Source: a virus. From it: a DNA stretch of 64,000 nt. Shown here one piece after another: positions 2 through 47,357 of the stretch. The notes below the pieces were generated by a model, which saw only the letters and a list, made by a program, of their open reading frames with translations, ran no database searches and had not been told where the DNA came from. The stretch spans positions 66,093 to 130,092 of the IMG/VR virus record IMGVR_UViG_3300030333_002570; one strand, 5' to 3'. The translations under genes and the position numbers were made by a program. Numbering within the stretch: position 1 is the stretch's first letter; each line of letters starts with the position of its first letter.

Positions 2-3000
2 TTGAATGGTTTTAATGAGAATACAATCGTTCCTTTAGATAATATTTCTGGTAGTTTTGGTGAGAGTAAGAGACAATTTACTATTACTAGAAGTGGTGCA
101 AGATATGAACCTGTTGCTGATGAATATGTTCTTGCAGTTTATGATAATCGCCTATTAACTCCAAAAGTAGACTTTTTCCTTGATGGTGATCAGTTTATAT
201 TCTTAACTGCTCCATTAAACGGTAGATTCCTTTCATTGTATTCTATTGAAGCACCTATTCCTTCTTTTGGTGCTGGTGCAGTAGGTTATGCACGTATTAG
301 TGACTCTGGAGAACTAACTGATATTTCTATCAGTAAAAATGGTTCTGGATATAAGTCTGAATATCCTCCACAAATTTCTATTAATACTGAAAATGGTAGT
401 GGTGGTTCTGCAACTGCTCTTGTTAACGGTATTAAGTCAATATCTCTATTAGAAGGTGGTCAAGGTTATAGTAGTACCAACCCACCTGTAGTTCAAGTTC
501 AAGCACCAACTGCTCCTGGATCTACTGCTGCAACTGTAACTGCAACTGTAACTAATGGTGCTGTAAGTGACCTTAAAATCACTAATTCTGGTTCTGGATA
601 TACATTCACACCTAGAATCACTTTCAAGCAACCTGGAGGTGCTGTATTAGGCGTTCCAACCATTACTAATGGACAAGTTACTGCTGTAAGTATTACTAAT
701 GCTGGTTTTGGATATACAACTGTTCCAACAATCTATATTGATGAACCAACTGGTACAAACCCAATTAAAGCAGCATTTCAGGCAGTTTTAAGTAGTCAAG
801 GTGAAATTACATCTATTAATATACTAAATGCTGGTCAAGGGTATACAACTACTCCTAGAATGGCAGTTATTGACCCAGTAGGTGCTCAAGTTCTTGAAAC
901 TACTGTTGATAATCAAGGTAGAGTAATTAATATTGAATTATTAAGTGGTGGTGTAGGATATACTGATGTTCCTTCTGTTTATATTGTAGATAATAGAGTT
1001 GATGCTACTGGTGGATATGCTGGTGGAACTGGTGCTGTAGCAACTGCATCAATCTTTAATGGACAAATTACAGATATTAATATTAGTGCTTTTGGTGGTG
1101 GATATAGTCAAACTTCTCCTCCTGTAGTTGTTATTCAAGCACCTCCTGCTGCTGAAGCATCTGCGGAGATTGGTTTGAATGAAGTTACTGGTTTTACAGT
1201 AAATCAATCTGGTAGTGGGTATCAAAAGTCCCAATTAACTGGATGTGCTCGTGCTGCTTCGTCTATAACTTCATATACTGAAAGTGGTAACGCAGTATTT
1301 ACAAATAATACTAGTGCTGTTGCACATCCTGTAAATGAACCAATTAAGTGCTTAGATGCACTATTTGTTAAAAGATTACTCGATAAGTACACAGAACAGT
1401 ATTTACCAGATGTTCCTACGTTAGATTATGCTAAAATTGACGTTAGAACAGCAATTAAGACAATTAAGGACTTTTATAGTTCTAAAGGAACATCATATAG
1501 TATTGGATACCTTTTTAAACTACTTTATGGTGAGACAGTAAGTATATCTTATCCTAAAGATCAAATTATCAAACCATCTGCTGCAACTTGGTCTATTGAT
1601 ACTATTTTGCGTGCTACTTTGGTTAGTGGTGATCCTACAAATATTCAAGATGGTCTTTTAACACAAGAAGCAGATATTGCTGACCTTAATGTTAAAGAAG
1701 CAAGTGCTCTTGTAGAAAATTATATTTCAATTAGAACTTCTGAAGTTACCATTTATGAATTGGTTCTTTCTGAAGAAACTATTGCTGGAACCTTTATTGT
1801 TCCATATAAGACAAAACTTGCAGAACCTTTAGGTAAAGAAGATAGTATTATTACAGTTGACTCTACTATTGGTTGGCCAGAAAGAAACGGTGAATTTATT
1901 ATTGGAAGTTCAACTGATACTAGAGAAATTATTCAATATAAGGAAAAATCATTAAACCAGTTTATTGAGTGTACTAGATCAGTAAATGGTGTAGTTGAAG
2001 ATTGGGATTCTGCTACAGAGGTAAAATCAAACTTTAATGTTTATATTAATAAGGGAACTCCTCAAGAAGTAGTGATGAATATTGTTGGTATCGTTGATGC
2101 TCAACAAACAACTCTTACTGATACTGGATCTTACTACTTACCAGGAGATAAATTAACAGTTTCTAAATTAGGTGGAACTGGAACTACTCCTGAACTTACA
2201 ACTTGGTTGTATAATGTTAAAAAATTAATTAGTGTTACTAATGTAGCGTTTGGTGGTATTAATAACCAATCTGCAACTATTACTTGTGCTAATGATCACG
2301 GTCTTTTGGTAGGAGATCAGGTAACCATTTATGGTGCTAACCCAATTCTTTATAATGGAACATTCCTTGTAACATCTAGAGATAGTGATACTGTTTTCCA
2401 ATATGCACTACCTCAACCTGCAACAGTTATCCCACAGGGTAATATTCTTGTATCTATTGACCTTAATAAGGGTAAATCTACTAGTACTGCAATAAGCAAT
2501 GCTATTAGTCCTTATACAACTAACGTTCAAAACTCATTCTTTAATGATAATTACGTTTATGTTGCTTCTACTGGTATTCCAAACTATAATATTGGTCCTT
2601 TCCCAGGATCTGCTCTTCTTCCTGGTAACCAAAGAAAATTAACAAGATTCCCTAAAGTTCCGACTACTATATCAACTAAAGACCTTATTAGTTCTGGTCC
2701 TATTGGTACATGGGTAAATGGTGTTTCTGTATGGTCATATAAGTCAAATTTAACTAAGACATTCGGTGCTGTAACAAGTATTGGTATTACAAATGCTGGT
2801 TCTGGATATGATGCTGCATCTCCTCCTGCTATTACAATTGCTGGTGGAGGAGGTAGTGGTGCTACTGCTTCTGTAGTTGTTGATGGTTCTATTAGTGAAG
2901 TTACTGTAACTGACGGTGGATCTGAATATACATCCTCACCATTGGTCTCTATAGTCGGTGGAGGAGGGTCTGGTGCTGCTGCAACCGCTATTATCACTAA

Positions 3001-24058: not shown

Positions 24059-25285
24059 ATGGCTAAACAACTATTAAGTCTTGGTACTAATGCTAACGAC
24101 AACACTGGAGATACTCTCCGTGCTGGCGGTGATAAAGTTAATGACAATTTTAATGAATTATATACTGCTCTAGGTAATGGTACAGATTTAACCATTAGTC
24201 TCGCTTCTGCAGGTAGTGGTCAGGTATTGCGATATAATGGAACAAACTTTGTTGCGTCAGATTATTTAAATTTAACTTCTGCTTTAGATGTTAATAGTAA
24301 TTCAATTATATCATCATCTAATGGGAATATTAATATTGCTCCCAATGGAACTGGCAATGTAACTATTGGTAATGGAAGTATTACTAATACTTTCAATGGA
24401 ACTGATGGAACAATAGATTTTCCAACGAAAGTAAAATATAAAAATGAATTTAGCACACTTGCTAGTGCTCCTGCTGCTGCGACATACACAGGATATTTCT
24501 TTACAGTTGATGGTGATGACAACCCATATGTAAATATTAATATTACTGCTGGTGGTGCAGGTGATGTGCAAGCAAAAGTTTTAACACAGTATTCTAGTGT
24601 TGATCTTTTAAAAGATATTGATATTACTACTGCAGCACCTACTGAAGGACAAGTCCTAAAGTGGAGTGTTAGTGGGGGTAAATTTGTTCCTGGTGATGAT
24701 GCTGCTGGTGCTAGTCAACAAAACCTATGGGCAACTGTTGGTGGTGATACTGGTACAACAAGTGCTAATACTACAACAGATACATTAACTATTGCTGGTG
24801 GAACTAATATTACAACAGCAGTATCTGGTGATACACTCACAGTAAACTTTGATGGAACTCTTGTTACAACTTTAGCATCCTTAACAGATGTTGATGTTTC
24901 TAGTGTTGTTCAAGGTGATTCATTATTCTGGAATGGAACAAATTGGACTAAAACAAGAAGTCCTATTACATGGTGGGAATTAGGTTCTAACGGAAGCACA
25001 GACTATACTATTGATGGACCTGGGTTTGCTTCTGCAACTAATGATCCAACTCTTTATGTAAGTAGAGGTTTTACCTATGCTTTTGACAATACTACAATGG
25101 GTGGTGCTCATCCTTTTAGAATACAGAGCACACAGGGTTTAACTGGAACTCCATATACTGCTGGTCAATCTGGTAGTGGAACTAGTGTTCTCTATTGGAC
25201 TGTCCCTATGGATGCTCCATCAACACTGTATTATCAGTGTACTCTCCATGCTGCGATGCAAGGACAAATTAACGTTGTAAGTTGA
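24059..25285 (+). CDS. Virion structural protein with gp9/gp10-type N-terminal attachment motif and C-terminal cupredoxin-like domain
   Basis: N-terminus LGTNANDNTGDTLRAGGDKVNDNFNELY resembles the T4 gp9/gp10 N-terminal motif. C-terminus has AHPFRI...LYYQCTLHAAMQG. Confidence 0.75.
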   Translation: MAKQLLSLGTNANDNTGDTLRAGGDKVNDNFNELYTALGNGTDLTISLASAGSGQVLRYNGTNFVASDYLNLTSALDVNSNSIISSSNGNINIAPNGTGNVTIGNGSITNTFNGTDGTIDFPTKVKYKNEFSTLASAPAAATYTGYFFTVDGDDNPYVNINITAGGAGDVQAKVLTQYSSVDLLKDIDITTAAPTEGQVLKWSVSGGKFVPGDDAAGASQQNLWATVGGDTGTTSANTTTDTLTIAGGTNITTAVSGDTLTVNFDGTLVTTLASLTDVDVSSVVQGDSLFWNGTNWTKTRSPITWWELGSNGSTDYTIDGPGFASATNDPTLYVSRGFTYAFDNTTMGGAHPFRIQSTQGLTGTPYTAGQSGSGTSVLYWTVPMDAPSTLYYQCTLHAAMQGQINVVS

Positions 25286-34700: not shown

Positions 34701-37700
34701 ATTAGAAAATTAAAGATTGTATTAGATTATTACGCACATGCTGCAACTGGTGATTACTTTGCTGGTCAATCTTATCTTGATACTAACTATGCAGATATAC
34801 CTTTCTACGATAATCTATTCTTACCTGATTTCCTAGACTTCCGTCCAGGTGTTAAGAATCTTTTCCAAGGAACAGGATCTGTTGCTTCTCCAGCATATGT
34901 TCAATTACCAACTTTAGATTTTAAAGCAAGAATATTCCCAACTTCTGGTACACCTTCTGCAACTCTATTTGACGTTCCTCAAATTAATAGTGACTTTAGG
35001 TGTGATTTTGATTGGTATTTGTCAAGGGTTGATAAAGTATTTGTTCTTCCTACTGGTGAATTCCAAATCATTAAGGGTAAGTCTGCAGAGAATCCTACAG
35101 AACCAGATGATTTACAAGATGGTATGCTTCTAGCAATTCTAAAGCATGATCCATATACATTCGATACTTCTGAAGATACTGTTATAGTAAAATCAGATAA
35201 TAAGCGATATACCATGAGAGACATTGGTAATATCGAAGATCGTCTTAATAATGTTGAGTACTATACATCACTCAATATGCTTGAATCAGATACATTTAAT
35301 TCTGAAATTTTAGATGCATCTGGTAAGAGTCGTTTGAAGAATGGATTTATTGTAGATGACTTTACAGATCATTCTAAGTCTGATATGGATGAAGAAGATT
35401 ATAGTGCTTCATTAGATTATGAATCAGGCACATGTCACGCTTCTCATTATACTACTAATGTTTCTTTATTAGTTGATGATTCATTATCACAAAATATTCA
35501 GCAAACTGGTCCTCTAATTACTCTTCCATATGTTGAGGAAGCATTAATTATACAACCATATGCTTCTAGAGTTGAGAATGTAAACCCATTCAACGTCTTT
35601 GCTTATATTGGACGTATTGATTTAACTCCAGCATCTGATGACTGGGTAGATACTAATCGTCTTCCAAGAAGAGTTACAAGTATTGAAGGTAATTTCAGAG
35701 CAACGAGAAGAAGACTTAATGTAGACCAGAATGGATTTGCTCCAACTCAATGGAGAGCATGGAGAACCACATGGACAGGAACATCTCGTGGTAGATGGAG
35801 AAGATGGAGAGAGCATACATTTGCTAACTTTGTTCCAGGTAGAGGTCGTCGTGTTATGGGATCTAGAACAACTACCACAACTCGTCGTCAAACAAGATCT
35901 GGTATTAGAACTAGAGTTGTACCAAGAATTGATAGAAGGTCATTAGGAGATAGGATAGTATCTGAAACTTCAATACCGTGGATTAGGTCTAGGAACGTTG
36001 AGGTTGTTGTTGCTCGTATGAAGCCAAGAACTTCATTCTTCTCATTCTTCGATGGTCAGAAGATTGATGATTATATGATTCCTAAAGTTATTGAACTTAT
36101 TAAGAACTCTTCTACTGATAGTAGAACTAACTCAACACCATTTGTGGTTGGAGAATTAGTTAGAGGTTTGACTAGTGGATGTAGATTTAGAGTTGCTGCA
36201 CCAAATGACTTCTTTAAGTACAATCAGTATGATGATACTGAGATGCCATCCTCTTATGCATCTACAACACCATTCTTGAATATTGATACTGAATCACTTG
36301 CTAGAAGAGCAGTAGGACGTTATTATGGTAACTTCCAAGTTGGTGAAGTTTTAATTGGTCAATCAGGTGCAAGAGCAGTTGTTAAAGATCGTAGACAAAT
36401 TACAGATAGATTAGGACAATGGAAAGGAGCATTCTTCATTCCAAATCCTAGAAATAGAAATAATCCACGTTGGTCAACTGGTGATAGAACTCTAAGACTT
36501 ACAACAAGTAAGACTGATTCTAGACTTCCAGGAAGTGTTGCTTCTTCTGCAGAGACTGAGTACTCAGCAAAAGGAACACTTAGAAGGGTTCAAGAAAACG
36601 TATTAGCAGTTAGAAATGCTAGACTTGTAAGAGATACAACAACTCAAAGAAGAACTAGGAGATCAACTAGAACTGAGACTCGTCAGGTTGGTTGGTGGGA
36701 TCCACTAGCACAATCATTCTTAATAACAGAAGATGGTGGTACATTTATTACTTCAGTTGATATTTACTTCAACACGAAGGATACAAATATTCCTATCTCT
36801 ATGCAGATAAGAACAATGGAAAATGGTTATCCTACAACTACTATTCTTCCATTCTCTGATACCACATTAACTCCTGATCAGGTTCAGATCTCTGAAACTG
36901 GTGCTATTGCAACTAAGTTTACATTTAGAGCACCTGTTTATATCCCACAATCAATAGAACATTGTTTTGTTCTATTCTCTGATTCCAATACATATCAAGT
37001 TTGGATTTCAAGGATGGGTGAATTAGATATTTCTGGAGACAGAACTATATCCGAACAGCCTTATGCAGGTGTCTTATTCAAGTCACAGAACGCAACTACT
37101 TGGACTGCAGACCAGTATGAGGATATGAAGTTTATTGTTAATAGAGCGAAGTTTACTACTAATCTAAACTCTAGACTTACACTTACCAATGCTCCTTTAG
37201 ATGTAGGTAACAATGGTAAGATTACTTTAGCACCTGATCCAATTCAAACTTATCAACCAGAGTTGCAACTTAATACTGCAGCATCTAATTTAACTGATAC
37301 ACCATTTACTATAGGTGCTCGTGTTTATCAGAAACAGTCTCTTGCTCAAGGAACTATTACTGCAAAAGCAAATAAAGCTGGTAGTGGATTTACTCTAACC
37401 ATTAATGATATTAGTGGTACTTGGGTTGATGCACAAGCAATTGTGTCATCTAAGACTACTGGAACTATAACTCTAACAAGCACATCTGGATATGCAATTG
37501 GTGACCAAATTACTGGTGGAACTAGTAGCACCACTGCTACAATTACTGAAGTAACTAATGCTACTACTTTAGCAGTTAATTATCTTTCTGGAATGTTTAC
37601 AAACGGTGAGACAGTAACTGGTGATGGTGCAGGCGGTGGTACTGCAAGTCAACAGACAACAGTTCCTGGATCTGGAACAAATACGGTTCCTGCAGGAGAC

Positions 37701-38981
37701 AGAGTGAGTTCTGCTACAGTTCAGGCAGCAACTCAATCAGGTGCTCCAGCATATGATACATCTAATAGAAAGATCAGAATTGCACATTCCGATCATGGTA
37801 TGCATGATTTAGATAATAATGTTATTATCGAAGGTGCTATATCTGAAATTTCAGATACTTATCTAACATCTGCTATATCAGCATCTGACACTGCTATTAA
37901 TGTTAATGATGCTACTGCATTCCATAAGATTATCAATGCTGCAGCAATTACTGCATCTAATGTAGGATACATTAAGATTGAAGATGAGATTATGTCTTAT
38001 TCAGCAATTAGTAATGATGGTAAAACTATTACAGTTCATGAAAGAGGACTTGATGGAACTACTGCTGTAACACATGCTGATGAAACAGTTGTTGAATGTT
38101 ATAACTTAGATGGTATTCCTTTAACAGAAATCAATAAGACACATGCTGCTATTGCTTCTCCAACATTAGATGGTTATGAAATAGCAACTAATTCTCTTGG
38201 TAGATTGGGTATAAGATCTGGTGGTGAAACAATTGTTGCAACTCAGAATGTTCAGTATGAGATTTTGGTACCTCAAATTGAAAGAATGTTACTTCCTAAG
38301 ACAGATATTACTGCAAGAGTTAATACTATTACTGGTACATCTATTAATGATGGAACCACAATGGGACAAAACTCCTTTAGTAATACAGGAGAGTTTATAG
38401 ATGTAAACTTAAGTGAAGATAATCCTTTTGATTCTCCTCAGTTGATTTGTTCTGAACAGAATGAATCTGCAGAATTGAATGGTGCTAAGTCATTTAGAAT
38501 GGATCTAACTATGCTTAGTAACTTAGCAACAGTATCACCTGTAATTGATACTGATAGAATGTCCATTACAACTGTAAGTCAAAGGATTAATAATCCTACT
38601 AATGTTGATAGTGCAAAACTTGCTGTTGGTGACGAACATGCTGCTGTTTATATTAGTAAGGTTGCAAGTCTTACTAATAATTCCACATCAATTAAATTGA
38701 TGTTTGCTGGTTACCGTCCACCAAATACTTACATAAAACCCCTATATAGAGTACTTCCTGCAGGTTCTTCAGATCCTATAGAGTCCTATGGATTTGAATT
38801 CTTCCCAACGGATACTGCTAAGATTCCTGAAACTACTGAGTTGGAACTATATAATGATTATGAGTATGAAGTTACTGGTTTAGACTTTACACAATATCAA
38901 GTTAAATTGGTATTTGTATCTGCAAACCAAGCATATGCTCCAACGGTTAAGGAACTTAGAGCAATCGCACTCGCTGTATAA
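31767..38981 (+). CDS. VrlC-like (DUF4815-type) large virion structural protein
   Basis: N-terminus TNLNVTPYYDDFD...FYRVLFRPGFPIQARELT, internal NGFIVDDF and DPLAQSF, and C-terminal ELRAIALA, in the usual post-gp8 position. Confidence 0.8.
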   Translation: MAQNTNLNVTPYYDDFDKAKNFYRVLFRPGFPIQARELTSMQSILQNQVENMGTHLFKDGAMVIPGQIGYDLEVDAIQVQESFLGADVENYRTQLTGKIITGLTSGVKAKVLYSISATESEKGYITLYLKYIESGTETGGTDNTQQTFIDNEQLVTDTEITFGTTLIEVGSPFAQLLPTAAVQTGSAAYVQNGVYFIRGFFVDVPYQYILLDQYGSTPKYRIGLEILESIITPEDDLSLNDNAAGTSNYAAPGSHRFRITTNLVKKLLTDEADKDFIELLRINGDKVEKLVDRSAYDELERSLATRTYEESGDYVVDDFQITMREGLSDGFNNGVYDAGDTTADGNSAAENLFAVEFGPGTAYVRGYRIKTLAPTYVDLAKPRDTNSAQNTIIPFELGNYSKVNNTYGFLNTSGSTITNAYQTLELRDNFTVTPGDAQGNIIGYARSASIEFLTNPDGTFGNADDQYKLHIFDVQMFTVIQMASAQTITTTASDNRGSLVVGKTSGARGFLVNPITSATHMQLYQVEGIFQKGEMITVDGLDKDVISNLHTYQYSDTRQVCARDESNSAVEFTADIILDDIRPLQGITFTYDATGGSEKITGTNSNFASDLRPGDRIYFNETKYVDVDFVTPTNLATANNATIFNYSSQVVLVTPAGGGAAPSAGTYTNLLRYRGKLTDIDKATLIKEMPKPYVKSISDESMIVRRTFDNQTVSTNSLSITLPENEQFQAITDANYTFTVMGGSNLTYPIGDQLPVDTVNSGGVGYTTFADPSTKTTLNIANLTNITSVKVTATISKNVTTKKSKSPTNMFVLKVNQSVQDLDKMPYGLTYSGVYGTRIEDKDISLGLTDVFNVHAVYESLDDNDPIIPSVTLVEPAFFANKSIVVGRTSKARASVVDFNSSTLKLTVVYLEGKFVSGETLDGFNSSNVAIQGIINDSVGSVIEGSKVITDRYVLQNGQTDFIYGTSKLVREKGVALPIRKLKIVLDYYAHAATGDYFAGQSYLDTNYADIPFYDNLFLPDFLDFRPGVKNLFQGTGSVASPAYVQLPTLDFKARIFPTSGTPSATLFDVPQINSDFRCDFDWYLSRVDKVFVLPTGEFQIIKGKSAENPTEPDDLQDGMLLAILKHDPYTFDTSEDTVIVKSDNKRYTMRDIGNIEDRLNNVEYYTSLNMLESDTFNSEILDASGKSRLKNGFIVDDFTDHSKSDMDEEDYSASLDYESGTCHASHYTTNVSLLVDDSLSQNIQQTGPLITLPYVEEALIIQPYASRVENVNPFNVFAYIGRIDLTPASDDWVDTNRLPRRVTSIEGNFRATRRRLNVDQNGFAPTQWRAWRTTWTGTSRGRWRRWREHTFANFVPGRGRRVMGSRTTTTTRRQTRSGIRTRVVPRIDRRSLGDRIVSETSIPWIRSRNVEVVVARMKPRTSFFSFFDGQKIDDYMIPKVIELIKNSSTDSRTNSTPFVVGELVRGLTSGCRFRVAAPNDFFKYNQYDDTEMPSSYASTTPFLNIDTESLARRAVGRYYGNFQVGEVLIGQSGARAVVKDRRQITDRLGQWKGAFFIPNPRNRNNPRWSTGDRTLRLTTSKTDSRLPGSVASSAETEYSAKGTLRRVQENVLAVRNARLVRDTTTQRRTRRSTRTETRQVGWWDPLAQSFLITEDGGTFITSVDIYFNTKDTNIPISMQIRTMENGYPTTTILPFSDTTLTPDQVQISETGAIATKFTFRAPVYIPQSIEHCFVLFSDSNTYQVWISRMGELDISGDRTISEQPYAGVLFKSQNATTWTADQYEDMKFIVNRAKFTTNLNSRLTLTNAPLDVGNNGKITLAPDPIQTYQPELQLNTAASNLTDTPFTIGARVYQKQSLAQGTITAKANKAGSGFTLTINDISGTWVDAQAIVSSKTTGTITLTSTSGYAIGDQITGGTSSTTATITEVTNATTLAVNYLSGMFTNGETVTGDGAGGGTASQQTTVPGSGTNTVPAGDRVSSATVQAATQSGAPAYDTSNRKIRIAHSDHGMHDLDNNVIIEGAISEISDTYLTSAISASDTAINVNDATAFHKIINAAAITASNVGYIKIEDEIMSYSAISNDGKTITVHERGLDGTTAVTHADETVVECYNLDGIPLTEINKTHAAIASPTLDGYEIATNSLGRLGIRSGGETIVATQNVQYEILVPQIERMLLPKTDITARVNTITGTSINDGTTMGQNSFSNTGEFIDVNLSEDNPFDSPQLICSEQNESAELNGAKSFRMDLTMLSNLATVSPVIDTDRMSITTVSQRINNPTNVDSAKLAVGDEHAAVYISKVASLTNNSTSIKLMFAGYRPPNTYIKPLYRVLPAGSSDPIESYGFEFFPTDTAKIPETTELELYNDYEYEVTGLDFTQYQVKLVFVSANQAYAPTVKELRAIALAV

Positions 38982-39199
38982 TGAACGTACCTGTTAAAGA
39001 CCATGCTGGATGGTATCGTGATGATAACGGAGCCATCCAATGTTCTGATTCTTCTACATATGAAAAGTATATGAAGGGTTATAGAGCAGAACAACAGAAA
39101 CAAAAAGATTTTGTAGCTTTACAAAATGACGTTTCTGGGTTAAAATCAGATATGAGTGAGATTAAATCACTATTACTAACGTTAGCTGACAAATCATGA
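38981..39199 (+). CDS. Small hypothetical protein with C-terminal coiled coil
   Basis: Coupled to the upstream stop (TAATG) and to the downstream start (ATGA). Heptad-like C-terminus LQNDVSGLKSDMSEIKSLLLTL. Confidence 0.75.
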   Translation: MNVPVKDHAGWYRDDNGAIQCSDSSTYEKYMKGYRAEQQKQKDFVALQNDVSGLKSDMSEIKSLLLTLADKS

Positions 39200-39450
39200 C
39201 AACCACTGAACTGGAAAAGGTATCACAAGAAACGATGCTTTCTCAATTTAAGGAAAGATATCAAAAATGCATTGCTGATAATCAGCAATTAGCAGCAAAA
39301 ATTAAAGAAAATGAAGTTACAGCACTCAAGCTTCAGGGTGCTATTGAAGCATTAGAGTATTATAACCCTCCTGTCGAAGGAACAGCACCAGAGCGGCCAG
39401 ACATTCCTGCCGATGATGTAACGGATGGGTCTCCTGAATTAACTGAATAA
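39196..39450 (+). CDS. Small hypothetical coiled-coil protein
   Basis: ATGA overlap with the previous ORF, amphipathic helix, acidic Pro-rich tail, followed by a terminator hairpin. Confidence 0.75.
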   Translation: MTTTELEKVSQETMLSQFKERYQKCIADNQQLAAKIKENEVTALKLQGAIEALEYYNPPVEGTAPERPDIPADDVTDGSPELTE

Positions 39451-39533: not shown

Positions 39534-42500
39534 ATGGCAAATAGAATTCAATTAAGAAGAGGTGGTGCTCAAGATTGGGCTAACTCTAACCCAACCTTGG
39601 CACAAGGCGAATTAGGTATTGAACTTGATACTGGTAGATTTAAAATAGGTGATGGTGTTACCGCATGGAACACTTTAAGATATGAGCGTCCTGTTGAGTC
39701 TACATCTAATACCGCAAATACATTAGTACAACGAGATGCAGATGGTAATTTCTCTGCAGGTACTATTACATCAACCATTATTGGTAACTCTTCAACTGCT
39801 TCAAGACTTGCATCTGCTAGACAGATAACTTTATCAGATGACATAGTAGGATCTGGTGTTTTTGATGGTTCTGCCAACCTCACTATATCTACTGGACTAC
39901 AACTAATTTCAACTCTACCTCATTATGATGGAACTGCTGGTGCTTCTGCAACTTATACAAAGGTAACTGTAGACGCAAAAGGTAGAATTACAAATGCTTC
40001 AACACCTTCAACTCTTGCTGATTATAACCTTAATGGAACTGTAGAGGGATCATCAGCTCAACCATATGATTTAGACTTAGTTGCAATAGCAGGTCTTACT
40101 ACTACTGGTATTATTGCTAGGACTAGTGGTGGTGCTATGTCAACCAGAACTATTACTGGTACTGCTACAAGAATTGGTCTGACCAATGGTAATGGTGTTT
40201 CTGGAAACCCAACCATTGATCTTATTACTACTGCTGTAACAGCAGGTGATTATAATACAGAATCTTTAACTTCTGTTAGTGGTGCTGGTAGTGGTGGAGA
40301 ACCTTTCGGAACTGAAACTGTAAACGCTACGAAATTTACAGTTGACGCATATGGTAGACTAACTAGTGCAACCAATGTGCCTATTGCAACAGCAGTAGAA
40401 GGAACAGATGCAGCAGCATACAACGCAGCAACGACCTATTCCAGAGGTGATAGGATCACTAATGCATCGAAACTTTATCAAGCCATTGCAGGTATCTCGG
40501 CAGGAGCTGGAGCACCTACTCATTCAGATACTAGTGATGCTGGATCGTGGAGACACCTCGGTGCAGTTACGACAAAACAAAAAGGTCTCGCTTCCTTTGC
40601 TCAAGAAGATTTTGATGTATCTGCAGGGGGTCACGTTAATATCGCTGCTGCTGGTGTTGACAATTCTCAATTACAAAACAGTCGAATTTCCTTTGCTGAC
40701 GGCAACGCAAAAGAGGACTTTGACCTTGACCAAGAATTAACTGCTACTACAGGATATCGTGGATTCAATAAACTCAACTATATCAAGATTAATGATACAA
40801 GCGGTAATCTACTGTTTGGTGCAAATAATACGGGTGATAGTGGTGCTGGAGAGGTTGATATTAACGTCAGATCCTATTTCAGTGATCCAGACATTACCCT
40901 CAACGCATCGACTTCACAAACTTTAGACAAGATTGGTGATGGTAATCTAACATTTCAGACTACACAGAACTCATCTTCTGCTAGATCATTAAGTATACTT
41001 GCAACTAACTCTGGTGCTGGTGCTAGTAATATTGTTATAACTGCTGAAGATAAGGTTACTATTACTGCTTCAGAAGGAACTAACGGTAAAGTACAAGTAG
41101 AAGACACATACTTCCAAGGGGACTACATTGCTTCCTCTGCTGCCACTATGATCCTTGATCCTGGTGATGACAGGGCAACCAGTGGTAAAGTTCAAATAAT
41201 GGGGGACTTACAAGTAGATGGAACGACTACAACAATTAATTCAACCGTTACTACGGTGGATGATCCTATCATTACTCTTGGCGGTGATACTGCTCCAGGT
41301 TCGGATGACAATAAGGACAGAGGAGTTGAATTCAGATATTACGACGCTTCAGCAAAAATTGGATTCTTTGGTTACGATGATTCGGCCGCTGATCTTGGAG
41401 GACATACAGGAGCATTTACATTCCTCTACGATGCCACAAATACCTCAGAAGTATTCACTGGAACAGATGCAGGGATCATCGCTGGTAACTTAAAACTTAC
41501 AACAAATACTAACTCAACATCTAATACTACTGGAGATTTGGTAGTAGCAGGTGGTGTTGGTATTGGTGATGATGTTAATATTGGTGGACTATTAGATGTA
41601 GACGGTACATTCCGTGCTAATAGCACATCTAGATTTGATGATAATATTGTATTCCAAGGTGCTTCTAAGACTTTAGAACTTAAGAATGGTTCAGGAACTA
41701 CTAAGACTACACTTCATACCACAACAGGTAATGCAGAATTTGGTGGTATAGTAACAGTAACAGGTAACACAGATTTAAATTCAAACTTAAACGTAGCATC
41801 TCTAGTTCATCTCGAATCAACTGATGAACCTAATATTGCTTTAAATGGTGGAACAAATCTTTATGAGATTCAAAGTTCTGACTATGGTGCATTAAGAGTA
41901 GATGGTGGTGGATACGTTGATAAAGATATTCTCTTTAATGGAGACATTTATATAAACGGTGATCTTAACCAGAGAGATAGTGGTACTGAGAGTTGGGGAT
42001 TCAGGAACTGGTTGCAGGTCAGATATAAGGGAAGATTTGGTTCAAGTGTTGCTTACAACCCAACTTATGCTACACATAACACTTCTAACTTAAGAGTGTA
42101 TGGTGGTGCTGGTGTTGCTCAAAATTTACATGTTGGTGCTACAGGATCTGGAGAAGGTTTCTTTGTTGGTAAGAAAAACTCTGGAGACACAGTTAAGTTT
42201 AGTGTTCTAGGTGCTTCTGGTGATACAACTATTGTTGGTGATCTTACAGTTAACTCTGCTGTTGACTTTGACACTACTTTAAACGTTGATGGTGCTGCTA
42301 CATTCCAAGATAATGTTACTATCAATGCTGATAATAAAATGTTTACTATCGAGAATAACTCGGCAGTAGACCAATTTACAGTTGATACAGATAATGGTAA
42401 CACATATGTTGGTGGATCATTAACAGTTGATGATGCTGCTGAATTAAATTCAACATTAAATGTTGATGCTGGTGCTACATTCCAAGACAATGTTACGATT

Positions 42501-45500
42501 AACGCAGATAATAAATTCTTCAAAGTCCAGAATAATTCAAGTGTTGACAAGTTTACCGTTGATACAGATAACGGCAACACTGTTATCGCTGGCACTCTTG
42601 ACGTTACTAGTAATGTCGGTATCGACGGAAACTTTGATATTGCTACTTCTAAGTTTACTGTTGCTGCTTCTACTGGTAATACTGTTATTGACGGAACTGT
42701 TGATATAGATGAGCAACTTACAGTTACTTCTGGAGTCACAATAAATGACGCTAATAAAACATTTACGATCCAGAATGGGGCTGGTACTCCTGTTACTAAG
42801 TTTGAAGTTGATACTGACAACGGTAATACTAACATCATTGGTACACTCACCGTTGGTGATGCAACTCAAATCAATGATACCTTCGGTGTTTCTGGTGTAG
42901 TAACAGCAACAAATAACACAGAGCAAACTCTAACAGGTTCATATGCTGCTGATGGTGCTGGAAGATTCTCTGGTGGTATTGGTCTTGCTAAGAACCTTGC
43001 GGTTGGTGGTAGTGCTAGAATATATGGTAACACTGAATTAACAGGATCACTTGATCTTAATAGTAGTGCTGATATATCTGGTGCTTTAGTATGTAATGAT
43101 AATGTGAACATCAAAGCAGACAATAAGATGTTTACTATTGAGACTGCTGCTGGTGTAGATAAGTTTACAGTTGATACCGACAATGGTAATACTGATATTC
43201 GTGGAACATTAGATGTTGGTGGAGATATAACTGCTGAATCTAATTTCACTGTTACAGGGAATCTTACAGTCAATGGAACAACAACACAAGTCAATAGCAC
43301 AGTTACCACTTACGACGACCCTATTATTACTTTGGGTGGTGACACAGCACCAGGATCTAACGATGGTAAGGATAGGGGTGTTGAATTCCGCTATTACGAT
43401 GGCTCTGCAAAAATCGGGTTCTTCGGATATGACAGATCAACCTCCGAATTTGCATTCTTAACAAGTGCATCTAACTCTTCTGAAGTATTAACAGGAACTG
43501 ATGGTGCTTTAAGAGTTGGATCAGTTCATGTAACTGGTGCAGGTACTTCATTAGATGTAGATAATAATTTAAATGTAGATGGAACAGCAACAATAGATGG
43601 TCAAATAACTTCTAATCTTGCTGATGGAACTGCTCCATTCGTTATTACATCTACAACTAAAGTTAATAATCTAAACGTTGACCGTTTGGATAATATGACA
43701 ACTGCAAGTGCAAACACTGCATCTACAGTTGTTAACAGAGATTCTTCTGGAGACTTTGCTGCTAATCAAATTACTGCTGCTAGTGCTGCTGGTGCTGGTG
43801 CAGGTTTCTTAGGTAATGCATCTTCTGCTGATGTTTGGAAAACTGCTAGAACACTCACTATTGATGGTGTAGTAGATGGTTCGGTTTCCGTCACTGGTGG
43901 AGCAGACTTTACGGTTACTACTACCTTTAATGACGCTGATATTACTGCCTTGGCAGCGATGAGTGGCACAGGATATGTTGTAAGAACTGCTGCAAATACA
44001 TACGCACAAAGAACACTTGCTGTAACAGCATCCTCTGGTATTACTCTTACTAATGCTGATGGAGTTGCTGGTAATACAACTATTAACGTTGCTTCTGCAA
44101 GCACAAACGCTGCAAATAACTTAGTCATACGTGACGGATCTGGTGACTTTGCTGCTAATGAGATTACTTCAGACTTAGTTGGTAACCTTACAGGTGCTAC
44201 TTCTACTGCTAAGAATCTTAACCCTGCTGCTGATAGCACATACGATCTTGGAACTAATACAGTTCGTTGGCAAACTTTATATGCAGATACTGTAAATGCA
44301 ACCACATACGTTGGTTCTCTTACAGGTACTTCTTCTGATGCTGCTGCGATTACGGTTGCTGATGAGTCTGCTGATACATCATGTAATGTGGTATTTGTTA
44401 CTGCAGCTACTGGATCACTTCCTCCTAAGACAGGAACTAATTTAACCTTTAATTCTAGTACTGGAAATCTTGCTGCTACTACCTTTACAGGTCTTGTAGT
44501 TGGTGATGTTACAGGTGATGTTACAGGTAATGCTGACACCGCAACTCTTGCTTCAACAGTTACTGTTGCTGACGAGTCAACTGATACTTCATGTAATGTT
44601 CTTTTCACAACTGCTGCTACTGGTTCTCTTGGAGTTAAGAGTGGAACTAATCTAACTTTTGATTCTGCAAATGGAGTTTTAACTACTACTTCTGTAACTG
44701 GAAATCTAACTGGTAATTTAATTGCTACAACATCTACTGCTAAGAATATTAATCCTGCTTCTGATAGTGCTCATGATCTAGGATCTAACACTGTTCGTTG
44801 GCAGAATGTGTATGCAGATGCTGCTAATATCACTGCTATAACAGGAACCTTAACTGGTACTGCATCCAGTATTGCTAATCATGATACTGATGCACTATCT
44901 GAAGGATCAACTAATCTATACTTCACTAATGAGCGTGTAGATGATAGATTGAATGATGTTATCGTTGCTGGTACAGGTGTTACTAAGGTTTACGATGATG
45001 CTGCTAACACATATACTTTATCTGTTACTCAGGCAGACATTGATACTGATAACATAACAGAAGGAGGTAACAATTTATTCTTCACTAATGAAAGAGTAGA
45101 TGACAGACTTAATTCTGTTATTATAGCAGGTACTGGTGTTACTAAGGTTTATGATGATGCTGCAAATACTTACACATTATCTGTAACTCAAGCAGACGTT
45201 AACTCTGATAACATAACTGAGGGATCAACAAATCTCTTTACAACTGCTGCAAGAACAAGAACACACTTTACATATGGAACTGGTATTACTCATAGTACTG
45301 GAACTTTATCGGTCACACAGGCAGATATTAATACAGACAATGTAACTGAAGGATCTACAAATCTATTCACAACTGCTGCTAGAACTAGAGGACACTTTAC
45401 ATATGGCACAGGTATTACACATAGTTCAGGTACTCTTAGTGTTACTCAGGCAGACATTAATACTGATAATATAACTGAAGGATCTACAAACGTATTCTTT

Positions 45501-47357
45501 ACTAACACTCGTGCAGACGCAAGAGTGGCTGCTGCTACTGGTGCAAACTTAGATCTATCAAGTAAGTCTACAACTGACCTTTCTGAAGGAACTAATCAAT
45601 ACTATACAGAAGCAAGAGTTCAAGCAAAACTTGACAATGCTTATGAACAACTAAGAGCAATGTTGAATAACCTTGCTACTGCAACAACACTAAAACTAAA
45701 TCTATCTGGAGATCCAACTCCTGGTGCAGTTGTAACTCTTGGATCTATCTCTAATGGTGGTCTTGGTGGATACACTGCTGGAACAAATGTTGCTACTACA
45801 GGTGGAACTGGATCGTCATTAACAGTTGATACTACAGTAACAAATGGTGCTATAACTGGAATTGCTTTAAACACTGCAGGTACTGGTTATCTTATTGGTG
45901 ATACAATCACAATTACTAACCCTAATCTAGGTGGTGTTAAGACACTTAACCTTGGATCACTATCTAACGGTGTTGGTGGATTTACTTCTGGAACTGCTGT
46001 TGCTACTTCATCCTCTGGATCAGGAACTAATTGCACAGTTGATACAACTGCTGATGGCAACGGTGCTATTACTAACGTAGTAATTAACGCTGCAGGGTCT
46101 GGTTATGCCATTGGAGAGACCTTAACCATTACTAACCCTAACGCAGGTGGTGTAGCAACCGTAGACACGCTTGTAGGTGGCACAGGATATGCTAATGGAA
46201 CTGCTATTGCTACTACAGGTGGTGGAGGATCAAATTTAACACTTGATCTTACAACCTCTAATGGTGTGGTAACTGGAGCAACAATTAATGCTGCTGGTAC
46301 AGGATACGCTGTAGATGACACAATCACTATTGTAAATGCTAATGCAACTGGTATTAGGACTCTTGGTTCTATAGCAACTGCTGGAACAGGATATGCTAAT
46401 GGAACTGCTATTGCTACTTCTGCTTCTGCTTCTGGATCTTCTGCAACTGTTGACATTACAGTTGATGGATCTGGTGCTGTAACAGGTGTCACAATTAATG
46501 ATGATGGAACAAACTATGCTGCTTCTGAAGTATTAACAATTACTAACGCTAATGCATCTGGAGTTAAGACTCTTGGAACTATCTCTGCTGCTGGTACTGG
46601 TTACACTGCTGCAAATGGAGTTGCTACAACTTCATCTGGATCAGGAACAGGATTGACTGTTGACATTACAGTTTCTGCTGGTGGTGTTGCTACTGTCGCA
46701 ATTAATGATGATGGATTAAATTATGCAGCATCTGAAGTAATTACTATCACTAATGCTAATGCAACTGGTGTTAAGACTCTTGGATCAATCACTGCTGCAG
46801 GAACTGGATATACAGAAGGAACTACTACTGGAGTTGCTACAACTTCATCTGGATCAGGAACAGGACTAACAGTCGATGTTACTGCTGATGCATCAGGAAA
46901 TGTCACTGGAGTTGCAATTAATGATGATGGATTGACTTATGCAGCATCTGAAATTATAACTATATCAGGTAGTGGTAATGGTGATGCAACCATAACGGTA
47001 TCTGCTATTCATGGAAATGGAGCACAGATTCCAGTATCCGCTATACATGGTAATGGATGCACAATTCCTGTATCTGCTATTCATGGAAATGGAGCAACAG
47101 TTGATGTTGCTACAATCTATGCTAATGCAACAGTTAATACTTCTACAGTATTCACTAATGCAACCTTTGCACTTGCTGACATCACAACGATGGAAATTGG
47201 TGCAACAGTAACTGGAGCAACCTCTGGTACAACTGGAGTTATAACTGCTATGGATGCGACTTCAGTCACAGTTGATAATGTTGATGGTTTCTACAAAAAA
47301 GGAGAAACCGTTGGTGCTAATGATGTCACTAATCTGACTATAAGTTCATTCGGATAA
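39534..47357 (+). CDS. Long tail-fibre-like protein (2607 aa) with Mtd_N-like N-terminus
   Basis: N-terminus IQLRRGGAQDWANSNPTLAQGELGIELDTGRFKIGDG matches the Mtd N-terminal-type fibre anchor. The rest is G/A/T/N/D-rich beta repeats, a CBM5/12-like insert, EGSTNL repeats and nested GxGY domains. Confidence 0.8.
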   Translation: MANRIQLRRGGAQDWANSNPTLAQGELGIELDTGRFKIGDGVTAWNTLRYERPVESTSNTANTLVQRDADGNFSAGTITSTIIGNSSTASRLASARQITLSDDIVGSGVFDGSANLTISTGLQLISTLPHYDGTAGASATYTKVTVDAKGRITNASTPSTLADYNLNGTVEGSSAQPYDLDLVAIAGLTTTGIIARTSGGAMSTRTITGTATRIGLTNGNGVSGNPTIDLITTAVTAGDYNTESLTSVSGAGSGGEPFGTETVNATKFTVDAYGRLTSATNVPIATAVEGTDAAAYNAATTYSRGDRITNASKLYQAIAGISAGAGAPTHSDTSDAGSWRHLGAVTTKQKGLASFAQEDFDVSAGGHVNIAAAGVDNSQLQNSRISFADGNAKEDFDLDQELTATTGYRGFNKLNYIKINDTSGNLLFGANNTGDSGAGEVDINVRSYFSDPDITLNASTSQTLDKIGDGNLTFQTTQNSSSARSLSILATNSGAGASNIVITAEDKVTITASEGTNGKVQVEDTYFQGDYIASSAATMILDPGDDRATSGKVQIMGDLQVDGTTTTINSTVTTVDDPIITLGGDTAPGSDDNKDRGVEFRYYDASAKIGFFGYDDSAADLGGHTGAFTFLYDATNTSEVFTGTDAGIIAGNLKLTTNTNSTSNTTGDLVVAGGVGIGDDVNIGGLLDVDGTFRANSTSRFDDNIVFQGASKTLELKNGSGTTKTTLHTTTGNAEFGGIVTVTGNTDLNSNLNVASLVHLESTDEPNIALNGGTNLYEIQSSDYGALRVDGGGYVDKDILFNGDIYINGDLNQRDSGTESWGFRNWLQVRYKGRFGSSVAYNPTYATHNTSNLRVYGGAGVAQNLHVGATGSGEGFFVGKKNSGDTVKFSVLGASGDTTIVGDLTVNSAVDFDTTLNVDGAATFQDNVTINADNKMFTIENNSAVDQFTVDTDNGNTYVGGSLTVDDAAELNSTLNVDAGATFQDNVTINADNKFFKVQNNSSVDKFTVDTDNGNTVIAGTLDVTSNVGIDGNFDIATSKFTVAASTGNTVIDGTVDIDEQLTVTSGVTINDANKTFTIQNGAGTPVTKFEVDTDNGNTNIIGTLTVGDATQINDTFGVSGVVTATNNTEQTLTGSYAADGAGRFSGGIGLAKNLAVGGSARIYGNTELTGSLDLNSSADISGALVCNDNVNIKADNKMFTIETAAGVDKFTVDTDNGNTDIRGTLDVGGDITAESNFTVTGNLTVNGTTTQVNSTVTTYDDPIITLGGDTAPGSNDGKDRGVEFRYYDGSAKIGFFGYDRSTSEFAFLTSASNSSEVLTGTDGALRVGSVHVTGAGTSLDVDNNLNVDGTATIDGQITSNLADGTAPFVITSTTKVNNLNVDRLDNMTTASANTASTVVNRDSSGDFAANQITAASAAGAGAGFLGNASSADVWKTARTLTIDGVVDGSVSVTGGADFTVTTTFNDADITALAAMSGTGYVVRTAANTYAQRTLAVTASSGITLTNADGVAGNTTINVASASTNAANNLVIRDGSGDFAANEITSDLVGNLTGATSTAKNLNPAADSTYDLGTNTVRWQTLYADTVNATTYVGSLTGTSSDAAAITVADESADTSCNVVFVTAATGSLPPKTGTNLTFNSSTGNLAATTFTGLVVGDVTGDVTGNADTATLASTVTVADESTDTSCNVLFTTAATGSLGVKSGTNLTFDSANGVLTTTSVTGNLTGNLIATTSTAKNINPASDSAHDLGSNTVRWQNVYADAANITAITGTLTGTASSIANHDTDALSEGSTNLYFTNERVDDRLNDVIVAGTGVTKVYDDAANTYTLSVTQADIDTDNITEGGNNLFFTNERVDDRLNSVIIAGTGVTKVYDDAANTYTLSVTQADVNSDNITEGSTNLFTTAARTRTHFTYGTGITHSTGTLSVTQADINTDNVTEGSTNLFTTAARTRGHFTYGTGITHSSGTLSVTQADINTDNITEGSTNVFFTNTRADARVAAATGANLDLSSKSTTDLSEGTNQYYTEARVQAKLDNAYEQLRAMLNNLATATTLKLNLSGDPTPGAVVTLGSISNGGLGGYTAGTNVATTGGTGSSLTVDTTVTNGAITGIALNTAGTGYLIGDTITITNPNLGGVKTLNLGSLSNGVGGFTSGTAVATSSSGSGTNCTVDTTADGNGAITNVVINAAGSGYAIGETLTITNPNAGGVATVDTLVGGTGYANGTAIATTGGGGSNLTLDLTTSNGVVTGATINAAGTGYAVDDTITIVNANATGIRTLGSIATAGTGYANGTAIATSASASGSSATVDITVDGSGAVTGVTINDDGTNYAASEVLTITNANASGVKTLGTISAAGTGYTAANGVATTSSGSGTGLTVDITVSAGGVATVAINDDGLNYAASEVITITNANATGVKTLGSITAAGTGYTEGTTTGVATTSSGSGTGLTVDVTADASGNVTGVAINDDGLTYAASEIITISGSGNGDATITVSAIHGNGAQIPVSAIHGNGCTIPVSAIHGNGATVDVATIYANATVNTSTVFTNATFALADITTMEIGATVTGATSGTTGVITAMDATSVTVDNVDGFYKKGETVGANDVTNLTISSFG
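42290..43205 (+). repeat. Four ~40-aa coding repeats (TINADNKxFxI...DKFTVDTDNGNT) plus one shortened copy
   Basis: Seen in the translation and as recurring gttgatac-gataa-ggtaa-ac DNA at ~42381, 42561, 42807 and 43170. Confidence 0.85.
44880..45625 (+). repeat. Six EG(S/G)TNL(Y/F)FT-type fibre repeats (two 53-aa units, two 43-aa units, two divergent)
   Basis: Translation shows GTGVTKVYDDAANTYTLSVTQAD twice and NLFTTAARTRxHFTYGTGITHSxGTLSVTQAD twice. Confidence 0.85.
45723..47183 (+). repeat. Six telescopically nested GxGY beta-domains
   Basis: Six ~65-70-aa openers end in TIT(N/I)xN and are followed by six ~11-12-aa closing strands. Three of the closers form a 36-nt tandem repeat at ~46998-47105. 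Confidence 0.8.

What the first reader, a model, noticed from the sequence alone, without database searches (positions are those of the whole stretch)
45723..47183. Second, independent nest: six-level telescopic domain insertion at the fibre C-terminus
Six GxGY domains open in series (GAVVTLG, GGVKTLN, GGVATVD, TGIRTLG, SGVKTLG, TGVKTLG). The first five break at the same N(P/A)N loop and only the sixth completes locally (GDATITVSAI). Five more closing strands follow: HGNGAQIPVSAI, HGNGCTIPVSAI, HGNGATVDVATI, YANATVNTSTV and FTNATFALADI. Similarity among closers mirrors similarity among openers, since the inner ones are most alike. An identical 37-mer lies at 46616-46652 and 46829-46865. Inference: the chain runs out and back to form an extendable stalk, growing at its tip by paired duplication of opener and closer.
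Basis: partly seen in the sequence, partly recalled or inferred. Interest (0 to 1): 0.8.

Follow-up and report, generated by a model that had tools for sequence, protein, structure and literature searches.

The report
Six-deep nested barrel rod in cyanophage fibre
Near the end of a giant marine cyanophage fibre protein, six small beta-barrel domains appear to sit one inside the next like Russian dolls, each completed by one strand that the chain supplies on its way back, giving a rod whose length differs in whole steps (2 to 8) between related phages.

Summary
Residues 2064-2550 of the 2607-aa fibre ORF (39534-47357, +) contain six ~70-aa repeats. Five end at NPN/NAN. Six 10-12-aa strands follow, and the identical 37-mer is real.

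The nested reading is well supported by four results.
- In 200 homologous C-termini, opener count (2-8) equals closer count in 199. The exception looks like an assembly chimera.
- Depth changes at least 27 times on a tree built from the flanks alone.
- AlphaFold2 models the whole nest at pLDDT above 90.
- Structure alignment finds one compact ~75-residue barrel spanning opener k plus mirrored closer k at all six levels.

Junction motifs covary only in the mirrored register. The barrel most resembles T4 sheath gp18 domain I, but weakly (Z 4.6).

- The nest is not the chain end, because a conserved 57-aa module follows it.
- Growth "at the tip" is not shown. Relatives differ by two separate indels of about 70 and 12 aa.
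- The mirror of similarities is only a trend.

Nested insertion is known from T4 gp18 and cyanobacterial RNA polymerase Si3. A self-similar nest of variable depth in a fibre was not found in the literature searched. This scan has already noted the same architecture in other genomes. Function is inferred, not shown.

The parts
39534..47357 (+). Fibre / virion structural protein ORF, 2607 aa, with an Mtd_N domain at the N-terminus. It sits where wac lies in the T4 gene order, after the baseplate-wedge genes and before gp13/gp14/gp15-like genes.
   Evidence: ORF list. Pfam Mtd_N E = 1.4e-12. phrog_697 structural protein. Neighbours typed by PHROGs. Homologues are annotated 'fiber' or 'YadA domain-containing structural protein' in P-RSM3, P-SSM4, P-SSM7 and S-TIM4.
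45609..45677 (+). Predicted alpha-helix just before the nest (aa 2026-2048).
   Evidence: AF2 model helix at residues 13-35, pLDDT only 44-63.
45684..45722 (+). Conserved pre-nest linker ending in the invariant motif NLSGDPTP.
   Evidence: Invariant columns N43-G51 in the 61-sequence alignment A1.
45723..45929 (+). Opener R1, the outermost barrel: strands 1-5, ending in NPNL.
   Evidence: HMM 84.5 bits. Five strands in the model. Barrel alignments span model residues 49..541 and 49..539.
45930..46145 (+). Opener R2, ending in NPNA.
   Evidence: HMM 98.4 bits. Barrel alignment spans 120..526.
46146..46346 (+). Opener R3, ending in NANA.
   Evidence: HMM 77.9 bits. About 15 barrel alignments span 192..513-516 with ~75 aligned residues.
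46347..46556 (+). Opener R4, ending in NANA.
   Evidence: HMM 102.7 bits. Barrel alignments span 259..503.
46557..46763 (+). Opener R5, ending in NANA. It holds the first copy of the 37-mer (46616-46652).
   Evidence: HMM 97.2 bits. Barrel alignment spans 329..493. 37-mer verified.
46764..47009 (+). Innermost complete barrel (R6 plus C6, 82 aa, contiguous), which would be the distal end of the rod. It holds the second copy of the 37-mer (46829-46865).
   Evidence: Six strands when folded alone, pLDDT 79. Best structural match is T4 gp18 domain I: Z 4.6, rmsd 2.9, 76 of 82 residues aligned. In the full model the same match spans 401..479.
47010..47045 (+). Closer C5 (begins HGNG). It would be strand 6 of barrel R5.
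   Evidence: Model strand 484-491, pLDDT above 90. Alignment range 329..493.
47046..47081 (+). Closer C4 (begins HGNG). It would be strand 6 of barrel R4.
   Evidence: Model strand 497-503. Alignment range 259..503.
47082..47117 (+). Closer C3 (begins HGNG). It would be strand 6 of barrel R3.
   Evidence: Model strand 509-515. Alignment range 192..516.
47118..47150 (+). Closer C2 (begins YANA). It would be strand 6 of barrel R2.
   Evidence: Model strand 519-526. Alignment range 120..526.
47151..47183 (+). Closer C1 (begins FTNA). It would be strand 6 of barrel R1.
   Evidence: Model strand 530-538. Alignment range 49..541.
47184..47354 (+). Conserved 57-aa C-terminal module. By the nest geometry it returns to the base of the rod. 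Its fold and oligomeric state are unresolved.
   Evidence: Always 57 aa in the 73 distinct versions found among 200 homologues. Mean column identity 87% in a 25-sequence alignment. pLDDT 36-46 in the model. Its core motif recurs in ORF 31767-38981 and in the gp14-like ORF.

Best explanation
Residues 2064-2550 of the fibre protein most likely fold into a hairpin-like rod of six serially nested six-stranded beta-barrels.

On the way out, each ~70-aa opener lays down strands 1-5 of one barrel. The chain then leaves through an NPN or NAN loop into the next barrel. The sixth barrel closes locally and forms the far end of the rod. On the way back, each 10-12-aa closer adds strand 6 to one barrel, in reverse order (C5 to R5, down to C1 to R1).

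Every joint between barrels is therefore crossed by two chain segments. The entry and exit of the nest lie side by side, so the conserved 57-aa C-terminal module ends up at the base of the rod, next to the helix that precedes the nest.

Related phages carry the same design at 2 to 8 levels. About half of them have a different ~95-aa domain at the innermost position.

Inferred, not shown: the rod is a stiff spacer whose length changes in whole steps, and it presents its innermost domain to the host surface. Depth changes only when an opener and a closer are gained or lost together.
For: Sequence anatomy:
- Six abutting repeats and six short units.

Count parity:
- Among 200 homologous C-termini (120 database proteins and 80 IMG/VR loci, giving 130 distinct opener/closer sets), openers equal closers at depths 2, 3, 4, 5, 6 and 8, with or without the variant tip domain. 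The only exception is P0059.
- On a tree built only from 300 aa upstream plus the 57-aa C-terminal module, depth changes at least 27 times by parsimony, and parity holds throughout.

Structure prediction:
- AlphaFold2 with a 61-sequence alignment gives pLDDT 86-96 per 10-residue block over model residues 51-530 (the block holding the end of C1 is 77). Each opener has five strands and each closer is one strand.
- VIA-align fits compact ~70-80-residue barrels (EF-Tu domain 2/3-like, T4 gp18 domain I) at rmsd about 3 Angstrom. The model ranges are 49..541, 120..526, 192..516, 259..503, 329..493 and 401..479.
- These ranges start at opener k and end at mirrored closer k for all six levels, within 0-4 residues.
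- The contiguous innermost unit, folded alone, has six strands.

Covariation:
- In the mirrored register, an NPN exit pairs with an aromatic-start closer in 123 of 130 cases, and a NAN exit with an H-start closer in 266 of 311.
- The association degrades when the register is shifted by one level or made parallel.

Indels:
- Close relatives that differ by one level show one ~69-70-aa indel among openers and one 12-aa indel among closers.

Role in host interaction:
- The S-TIM4 homologue ORF108 is reported there as mutated in every host-adaptation population (PMC6224464).
Against: - No experimental structure exists.
- The structural Z scores are low (2.6-4.6).
- AlphaFold2 was run on a monomer, while fibres are usually trimers. 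Completion of barrels in trans by a neighbouring chain cannot be excluded.
- The parsimony count of 27 may be inflated by recombination and tree error.
- The helix, linker and C-terminal module are modelled poorly (pLDDT 36-63), so how the rod is anchored is unknown.
- The S-TIM4 adaptive mutation quoted (Thr580) lies far from the nest.
- Nothing shows that the innermost domain binds a receptor.
Confidence: 0.8

Rival explanations
1. Trans-completed (strand-swapped) trimer. The same out-and-back path exists, but in the assembled trimeric fibre each closer completes the barrel of a neighbouring chain. Three rods would then be laced into one bundle.
For: Fibre proteins are usually intertwined trimers (general knowledge). 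Count parity, mirrored order and junction covariation would hold equally in trans. The regions flanking the nest are modelled with low confidence as a monomer, as would be expected for parts that need oligomerisation.
Against: The monomer model closes all six barrels in cis at pLDDT above 90. The innermost barrel is contiguous and folds alone. The return linkers are only 3-4 residues (HGNG), which suits stepping to the adjacent barrel of the same rod.
Confidence: 0.1
2. Ordinary tandem array plus a separate element. The six repeats are self-sufficient five-stranded domains in a plain string. The 36-nt repeat encodes an independent beta-meander or beta-helix cap that does not complete them.
For: At DNA level these are simply two adjacent tandem-repeat arrays, with periods of 207 and 36 nt. 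HGNG could act as a tight turn between hairpin strands.
Against: This gives no reason for 199 of 200 homologues to keep equal numbers across depths 2-8 and at least 27 inferred changes. It does not explain junction motifs covarying level by level in the mirrored register only. In the model, closers are assigned to barrels with their openers. The only contiguous unit has six strands while openers have five.
Confidence: 0.05
3. The nest is real but serves only as a decorative or stabilising surface element, as gp18 domain I protrudes from the T4 sheath, and has no role in host recognition.
For: The closest fold match, gp18 domain I, protrudes outward and takes no part in subunit contacts (PMC3004832). 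Weak matches to the opener HMM occur in other structural ORFs of the window.
Against: Depth and tip domain vary strongly between close relatives (14 tip-state changes and 27 depth changes), which is typical of parts under host-driven selection. The homologous gene is a hotspot in host-adaptation experiments. Neither point locates the function in the nest itself.
Confidence: 0.3

Closest known systems
T4 tail sheath protein gp18 (PDB 3FOA, 3FO8): domain I inserted in II, in III, in IV
   Same: It has a serial 'Russian doll' topology of four levels, described in the paper's own words in PMC3004832. [quoted passage not shown] That domain is the best structural match of the fibre's innermost unit: Z 4.6, rmsd 2.9 Angstrom, 76 of 82 residues aligned, 17% identity. 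In the full model the same match gives Z 4.4 and 20-26% identity.
   Different: gp18 nests four different folds, once each, at a fixed depth. The fibre nests one fold inside itself 2-8 times. gp18 domain I also has an alpha-helix, and the fibre barrels have none in the model. Sequence kinship is not established: Pfam Gp18_dom_I reaches only E = 0.096, and a profile search of PDB sequences finds nothing.
Si3 insertion of cyanobacterial RNA polymerase (eight SBHM domains; PMC10895346)
   Same: It is an elongated rod of about 150 Angstrom made of repeated small beta domains and inserted in a loop. [quoted passage not shown] This is the same out-and-back principle with one repeated fold.
   Different: The fold is different (sandwich-barrel hybrid motif). 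The arrangement is fixed and serves a cellular enzyme. It is not a simple one-strand-per-level return. No variation of depth between close relatives is reported there.
T4 long tail fibre tip gp37 (needle domain)
   Same: The chain runs to the distal tip and returns, so the fibre's far end is a turn rather than the C-terminus. This comparison rests on my recollection of Bartual et al. 2010 and was not checked here.
   Different: The gp37 needle is an interwoven trimeric beta structure held by iron ions, not a string of discrete nested barrels. It did not appear in the structure searches.
Homologous cyanomyovirus fibres (P-RSM3 'fiber', P-SSM4, P-SSM7 and S-TIM4 'YadA domain-containing structural protein', S-H25)
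   Same: They are direct homologues with the same nest: P-RSM3 has 5 levels plus the tip domain, P-SSM7 has 2 plus the tip, and S-H25 has 2.
   Different: They differ in depth and tip domain. No annotation or paper found in these searches mentions the nested architecture.

Membership tests
Serially nested (recursive) domain insertion | Each outer domain is discontinuous: its N-part and C-part are separated by complete inner domains. | tested here: met
   This was met in the AF2 model only. Single-barrel alignments span 49..541, 120..526, 192..516, 259..503, 329..493 and 401..479. Each opener has five strands and each closer one.
Serially nested (recursive) domain insertion | The number of opening parts equals the number of closing parts in every family member. 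| tested here: met
   199 of 200 homologous C-termini, at depths 2-8. The exception, P0059, combines P0060-like openers with the exact tail of P0072 and so looks chimeric.
Serially nested (recursive) domain insertion | Opening and closing parts pair in mirrored order. | tested here: met
   The alignment ranges in the model show this order. The association between exit-loop type and closer-start type is strong only in the mirrored register.
Serially nested (recursive) domain insertion | Experimental structure showing the topology. | not testable with these tools
   No solved relative exists. The profile search of PDB sequences gives nothing below E = 1.
T4 gp18 domain I-like barrel (Pfam PF22639, Gp18_dom_I) | Six-stranded beta-barrel superposable on gp18 residues 98-188. 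| tested here: inconclusive
   It is the top hit, but at Z 4.6, rmsd 2.9 and 76 of 82 aligned, about one Z unit above unrelated barrels. Foldseek gives probability 0.82 and E = 0.3 for the Klebsiella phage KP1 sheath.
T4 gp18 domain I-like barrel (Pfam PF22639, Gp18_dom_I) | Sequence match above the Pfam gathering score. | tested here: not met
   13.1 bits against a cut-off of 27, E = 0.096, on one repeat only. None of the 30 innermost domains matched it.
YadA-like trimeric autotransporter adhesin (the GenBank name of homologues) | YadA head, stalk or anchor domains detectable by Pfam. | tested here: not met
   The whole-protein Pfam scan finds only Mtd_N, plus a weak CBM_5_12 match. Seven of 30 innermost domains give sub-threshold Hia_Tpr_ring_dom hits, best E = 0.0056.
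T4 fibritin (wac), the positional equivalent | Gene lies between the gp12-like gene and gp13. | tested here: met
   The order is gp9-like connector, baseplate wedge subunits, a 2404-aa ORF, this ORF, then gp13-, gp14- and gp15-like genes, terminase, sheath, tube and portal.
T4 fibritin (wac), the positional equivalent | Coiled-coil shaft with a C-terminal foldon. | tested here: inconclusive
   Pfam finds no fibritin family in the protein. One predicted helix precedes the nest. The state of the C-terminal module is unresolved.

The most novel reading that the evidence does not exclude
The fibre carries a naturally length-tunable, self-similar 'telescopic' rod: one barrel fold inserted recursively into itself. 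Depth (2-8) and tip domain would be reshuffled between phages, with the conserved outer openers and outer closers acting as two homology arms that flank a variable inner cassette. Reach and specificity of host contact would then evolve as a unit.
Probability: 0.3. Interest if true: 0.85.

Novelty: new variant of a known kind. Interest (0 to 1): 0.72.

Why it matters
Nested domain insertion is usually shallow and involves different folds. This would be one fold nested in itself up to eight times, with depth varying among close relatives while opener and closer numbers stay strictly equal.

If it is real, it gives three things:
- A natural experiment on how proteins tolerate recursive insertion, and on how two distant sites in a gene change together.
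- A design principle for rigid rods of set length whose two ends lie side by side, so the rod can be plugged into any loop.
- A concrete candidate for the host-contact element of the abundant marine T4-like cyanophages, whose host-range determinants are poorly known.

It also shows that the far end of a fibre need not be its C-terminus, which matters for anyone mapping receptor-binding regions by position in the sequence.

Tried and rejected
- **Foldseek on the whole 594-residue model against PDB:** no match with E at or below 0.001. This is expected for a long multi-domain rod.
- **Profile search of PDB sequences with 30 innermost domains:** nothing below E = 1.
- **Pfam on the repeats:** only sub-threshold noise.
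- **Complex prediction with three copies of the 57-aa C-terminal module:** no verdict (score 0.00, fold uncertain). It says nothing either way about trimerisation.
- **Mirror-similarity test within single proteins:** the mirrored correlation is positive in all 15 proteins tried (r = 0.16-0.78). In 13 of the 15 it exceeds the parallel pairing; P0008 and L038 are marginally the other way. Between 1% and 39% of permutations do as well, so it is too weak to carry weight alone.
- **First regex for counting closers:** it over-split or under-split 19 tails. I replaced it with a length-based count and then a dynamic split.
- **Idea that a level is added as one contiguous complete domain at the centre:** not supported. 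Relatives show two separate indels.
- **Test of whether the pre-nest strand and the C-terminal module form one split host domain, a seventh level suggested by earlier notes on other genomes:** unresolved. Both parts are modelled at low confidence, and related uninterrupted modules in the window do not settle it.
- **Literature searches for a prior description of the nest in cyanophage fibres:** none found in the held library.
- **Steps I could not run:** model coordinates and PAE were not available to scripts, so no contact map was computed.
Full report
**Context**

The window is the structural module of a T4-like cyanomyovirus. PHROGs typing gives this gene order:
- a gp9-like connector (24059-25285);
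- baseplate wedge subunits (25291-30192 and 30231-31763);
- a 2404-aa ORF (31767-38981);
- the 2607-aa ORF holding the finding (39534-47357);
- gp13-, gp14- and gp15-like neck genes;
- terminase, sheath, tube and portal.

The ORF therefore sits where wac lies in T4. It starts with an Mtd_N domain (E = 1.4e-12). Its relatives in isolates are annotated 'fiber' (P-RSM3) or 'YadA domain-containing structural protein' (P-SSM4, P-SSM7, S-TIM4). Pfam finds no YadA domain in it.

**The observation**

Translating 45723-47183 gives six abutting repeats of 67-72 aa. Five of them end in NPNL, NPNA, NANA, NANA and NANA. An HMM built from the six repeats scores 78-103 bits on each, with no gaps between them.

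After the sixth repeat come six short units of 10, 12, 12, 12, 11 and 11 aa. Tandem Repeats Finder reports the two arrays as periods of 207 and 36 nt. The 37-mer at 46616-46652 and 46829-46865 is identical and extends no further on either side.

One correction is needed. A conserved 57-aa module (47184-47354) follows the last short unit, so the nest is not the end of the chain.

**Test 1: counts in homologues**

I collected 120 homologous proteins from the protein database and 80 loci from IMG/VR. I counted openers with the HMM. I counted closers between the last opener and the conserved ME[IV]G anchor.

- Depths of 2, 3, 4, 5, 6 and 8 occur. About half of the sequences carry a different ~95-aa domain in the innermost position.
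- Openers equal closers in 199 of 200 sequences.
- The exception, P0059, has four openers resembling P0060 and the exact three-closer tail of P0072. That pattern is what a metagenome assembly chimera joined inside the shared inner repeat would give.

To check that this is not just inheritance, I built a tree from the flanks only: 300 aa upstream plus the 57-aa end, for 124 distinct sequences. Depth changes at least 27 times on it by parsimony, and tip state changes 14 times. Recombination and tree error may inflate these numbers, but many independent changes kept the counts equal.

**Test 2: predicted structure**

AlphaFold2 on aa 2014-2607 with a 61-sequence alignment gives pLDDT 86-96 per 10-residue block over model residues 51-530, and 77 for the block that holds the end of C1. 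The preceding helix, the linker and the C-terminal module are modelled at only 36-63. Each opener has five strands, and each closer is one strand.

Compact beta-barrels of about 70-100 residues aligned 69-79 residues of the model at about 3 Angstrom rmsd. The model ranges matched the unit boundaries as follows.

| Level | Model range | Opener starts at | Mirrored closer ends at |
|---|---|---|---|
| 1 | 49..541 | 51 | 537 |
| 2 | 120..526 | 120 | 526 |
| 3 | 192..516 | 192 | 515 |
| 4 | 259..503 | 259 | 503 |
| 5 | 329..493 | 329 | 491 |
| 6 | 401..479 | 398 | 479 |

A compact barrel cannot align 75 residues across a 325-residue stretch of an elongated model unless the aligned residues are the opener plus the distant closer. 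So the model has the nested, mirrored topology. The contiguous innermost unit, folded alone, has six strands (pLDDT 79).

**Test 3: covariation**

In a nest, the loop by which the chain leaves barrel k and the start of closer k lie at the same joint.

- In the mirrored register, NPN exits go with closers that start with an aromatic residue in 123 of 130 cases.
- NAN exits go with closers that start with H in 266 of 311 cases.
- Shifting the register by one level, or pairing in parallel order, badly weakens the association. For example, NPN then pairs with H 81 times and with an aromatic residue 46 times.
- The number of aromatic-type closers (1-3) mostly follows the number of outer non-NAN exits, though several architectures have one more aromatic closer than non-NAN exits.

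**How depth changes**

Close relatives that differ by one level show two separate indels: about 69-70 aa in the opener array and exactly 12 aa in the closer array. An 8-level protein against the 6-level window protein shows about two opener units (140 aa, split by the aligner into three gaps) and 23 aa of closers. The innermost unit type is shared by many relatives of different depth.

So paired gain and loss is supported. Growth specifically at the tip is not shown, and repeats make the exact positions ambiguous. Whether one recombination event or two events are needed is open.

**What the barrel is**

The best match of the single-domain model is T4 sheath gp18 domain I: Z 4.6, rmsd 2.9 Angstrom, 76 of 82 residues aligned, 17% identity. 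The Klebsiella phage KP1 sheath follows at Z 4.3. Unrelated barrels score 3.5 or less. Foldseek agrees weakly, with probability 0.82 and E = 0.3.

Sequence methods do not confirm kinship. I therefore treat this as a resemblance, not membership.

**Comparison with known cases**

- **T4 gp18.** It is described as domain I inserted into II, inserted into III, inserted between the termini that form IV (PMC3004832). That is four different folds, once each.
- **Si3 of cyanobacterial RNA polymerase.** It is a 150-Angstrom rod of eight SBHM domains, of which SBHM-2 to SBHM-5 are built from distant parts of the chain (PMC10895346). This is the nearest analogue in principle.

The fibre differs in three ways. 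It uses one barrel fold nested in itself. The return path is one strand per level. Depth varies from 2 to 8 between relatives. I found no description of this in the held literature.

This scan has already noted the same architecture in homologous fibres of other genomes, twice with follow-up that reached the same reading.

**Function**

The S-TIM4 homologue was mutated in all experimentally evolved populations, and the authors relate it to tail-fibre-mediated attachment (PMC6224464). This supports a role of the protein in host interaction, but the mutation quoted lies outside the nest.

A stiff, double-linked spacer of set length that presents its innermost domain is my inference from the geometry and from the rapid turnover of depth and tip domain.

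**Verdict**

The nested out-and-back topology is well supported (about 0.8). Cis versus trans completion, the anchoring at the base, the growth mechanism and the function remain open.

Noticed in passing
homologues P0007, P0014, P0022-P0027, P0040, P0091 and others; not in the window: In about half of the homologues the innermost position holds a different ~95-aa domain, which begins like an opener and ends in a GGGG...LTFDxTAI strand. Tip state changes at least 14 times on the flank tree. It is a candidate exchangeable tip domain.
   Followed up: partly
P0059 (protein database, one 27-kb contig): This is the only sequence with unequal counts: 4 openers and 3 closers. Its openers resemble P0060 and its tail is identical to that of P0072. 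It is probably an assembly chimera joined within the shared inner repeat, but it could be a real defective recombinant.
   Followed up: partly
window 47184-47354; also ORF 31767-38981 aa 493-548, 882-934 and 1906-1959; ORF 48175-49101 aa 207-252: The core of the 57-aa C-terminal module (G..vtG.tSg.tg.v ... v.G.F..GE.v) recurs in the neighbouring 2404-aa ORF and in the gp14-like neck protein, at 4-18 bits. It looks like a small module shared among the virion proteins.
   Followed up: partly
window 2-24034 (ORF open at the window start, over 8000 aa): A single uninterrupted structural ORF of at least 8010 aa. The opener HMM gives weak hits in it (aa 141-214, 921-988, 1039-1103 and 2990-3056, at 9-18 bits), so GxGY-type barrels may be used there too.
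   Followed up: no
window 44913-45497: Just upstream of the nest, in the same ORF, lie two further tandem arrays with periods of 159 nt (2 copies) and 129 nt (2.4 copies), both about 80% matching.
   Followed up: no
window 46182-46214 / 46386-46418 and 47001-47024 / 47073-47096: There are further near-exact or exact DNA repeats besides the 37-mer. One links R3 and R4 (97% over 37 nt). Another links the C6/C5 and C4/C3 junctions (exact 20-mers). They may mark gene conversion among levels.
   Followed up: no
window 39196-39450: An 84-aa ORF sits alone in the 550-nt gap between the two giant fibre-like genes. I did not examine it.
   Followed up: no
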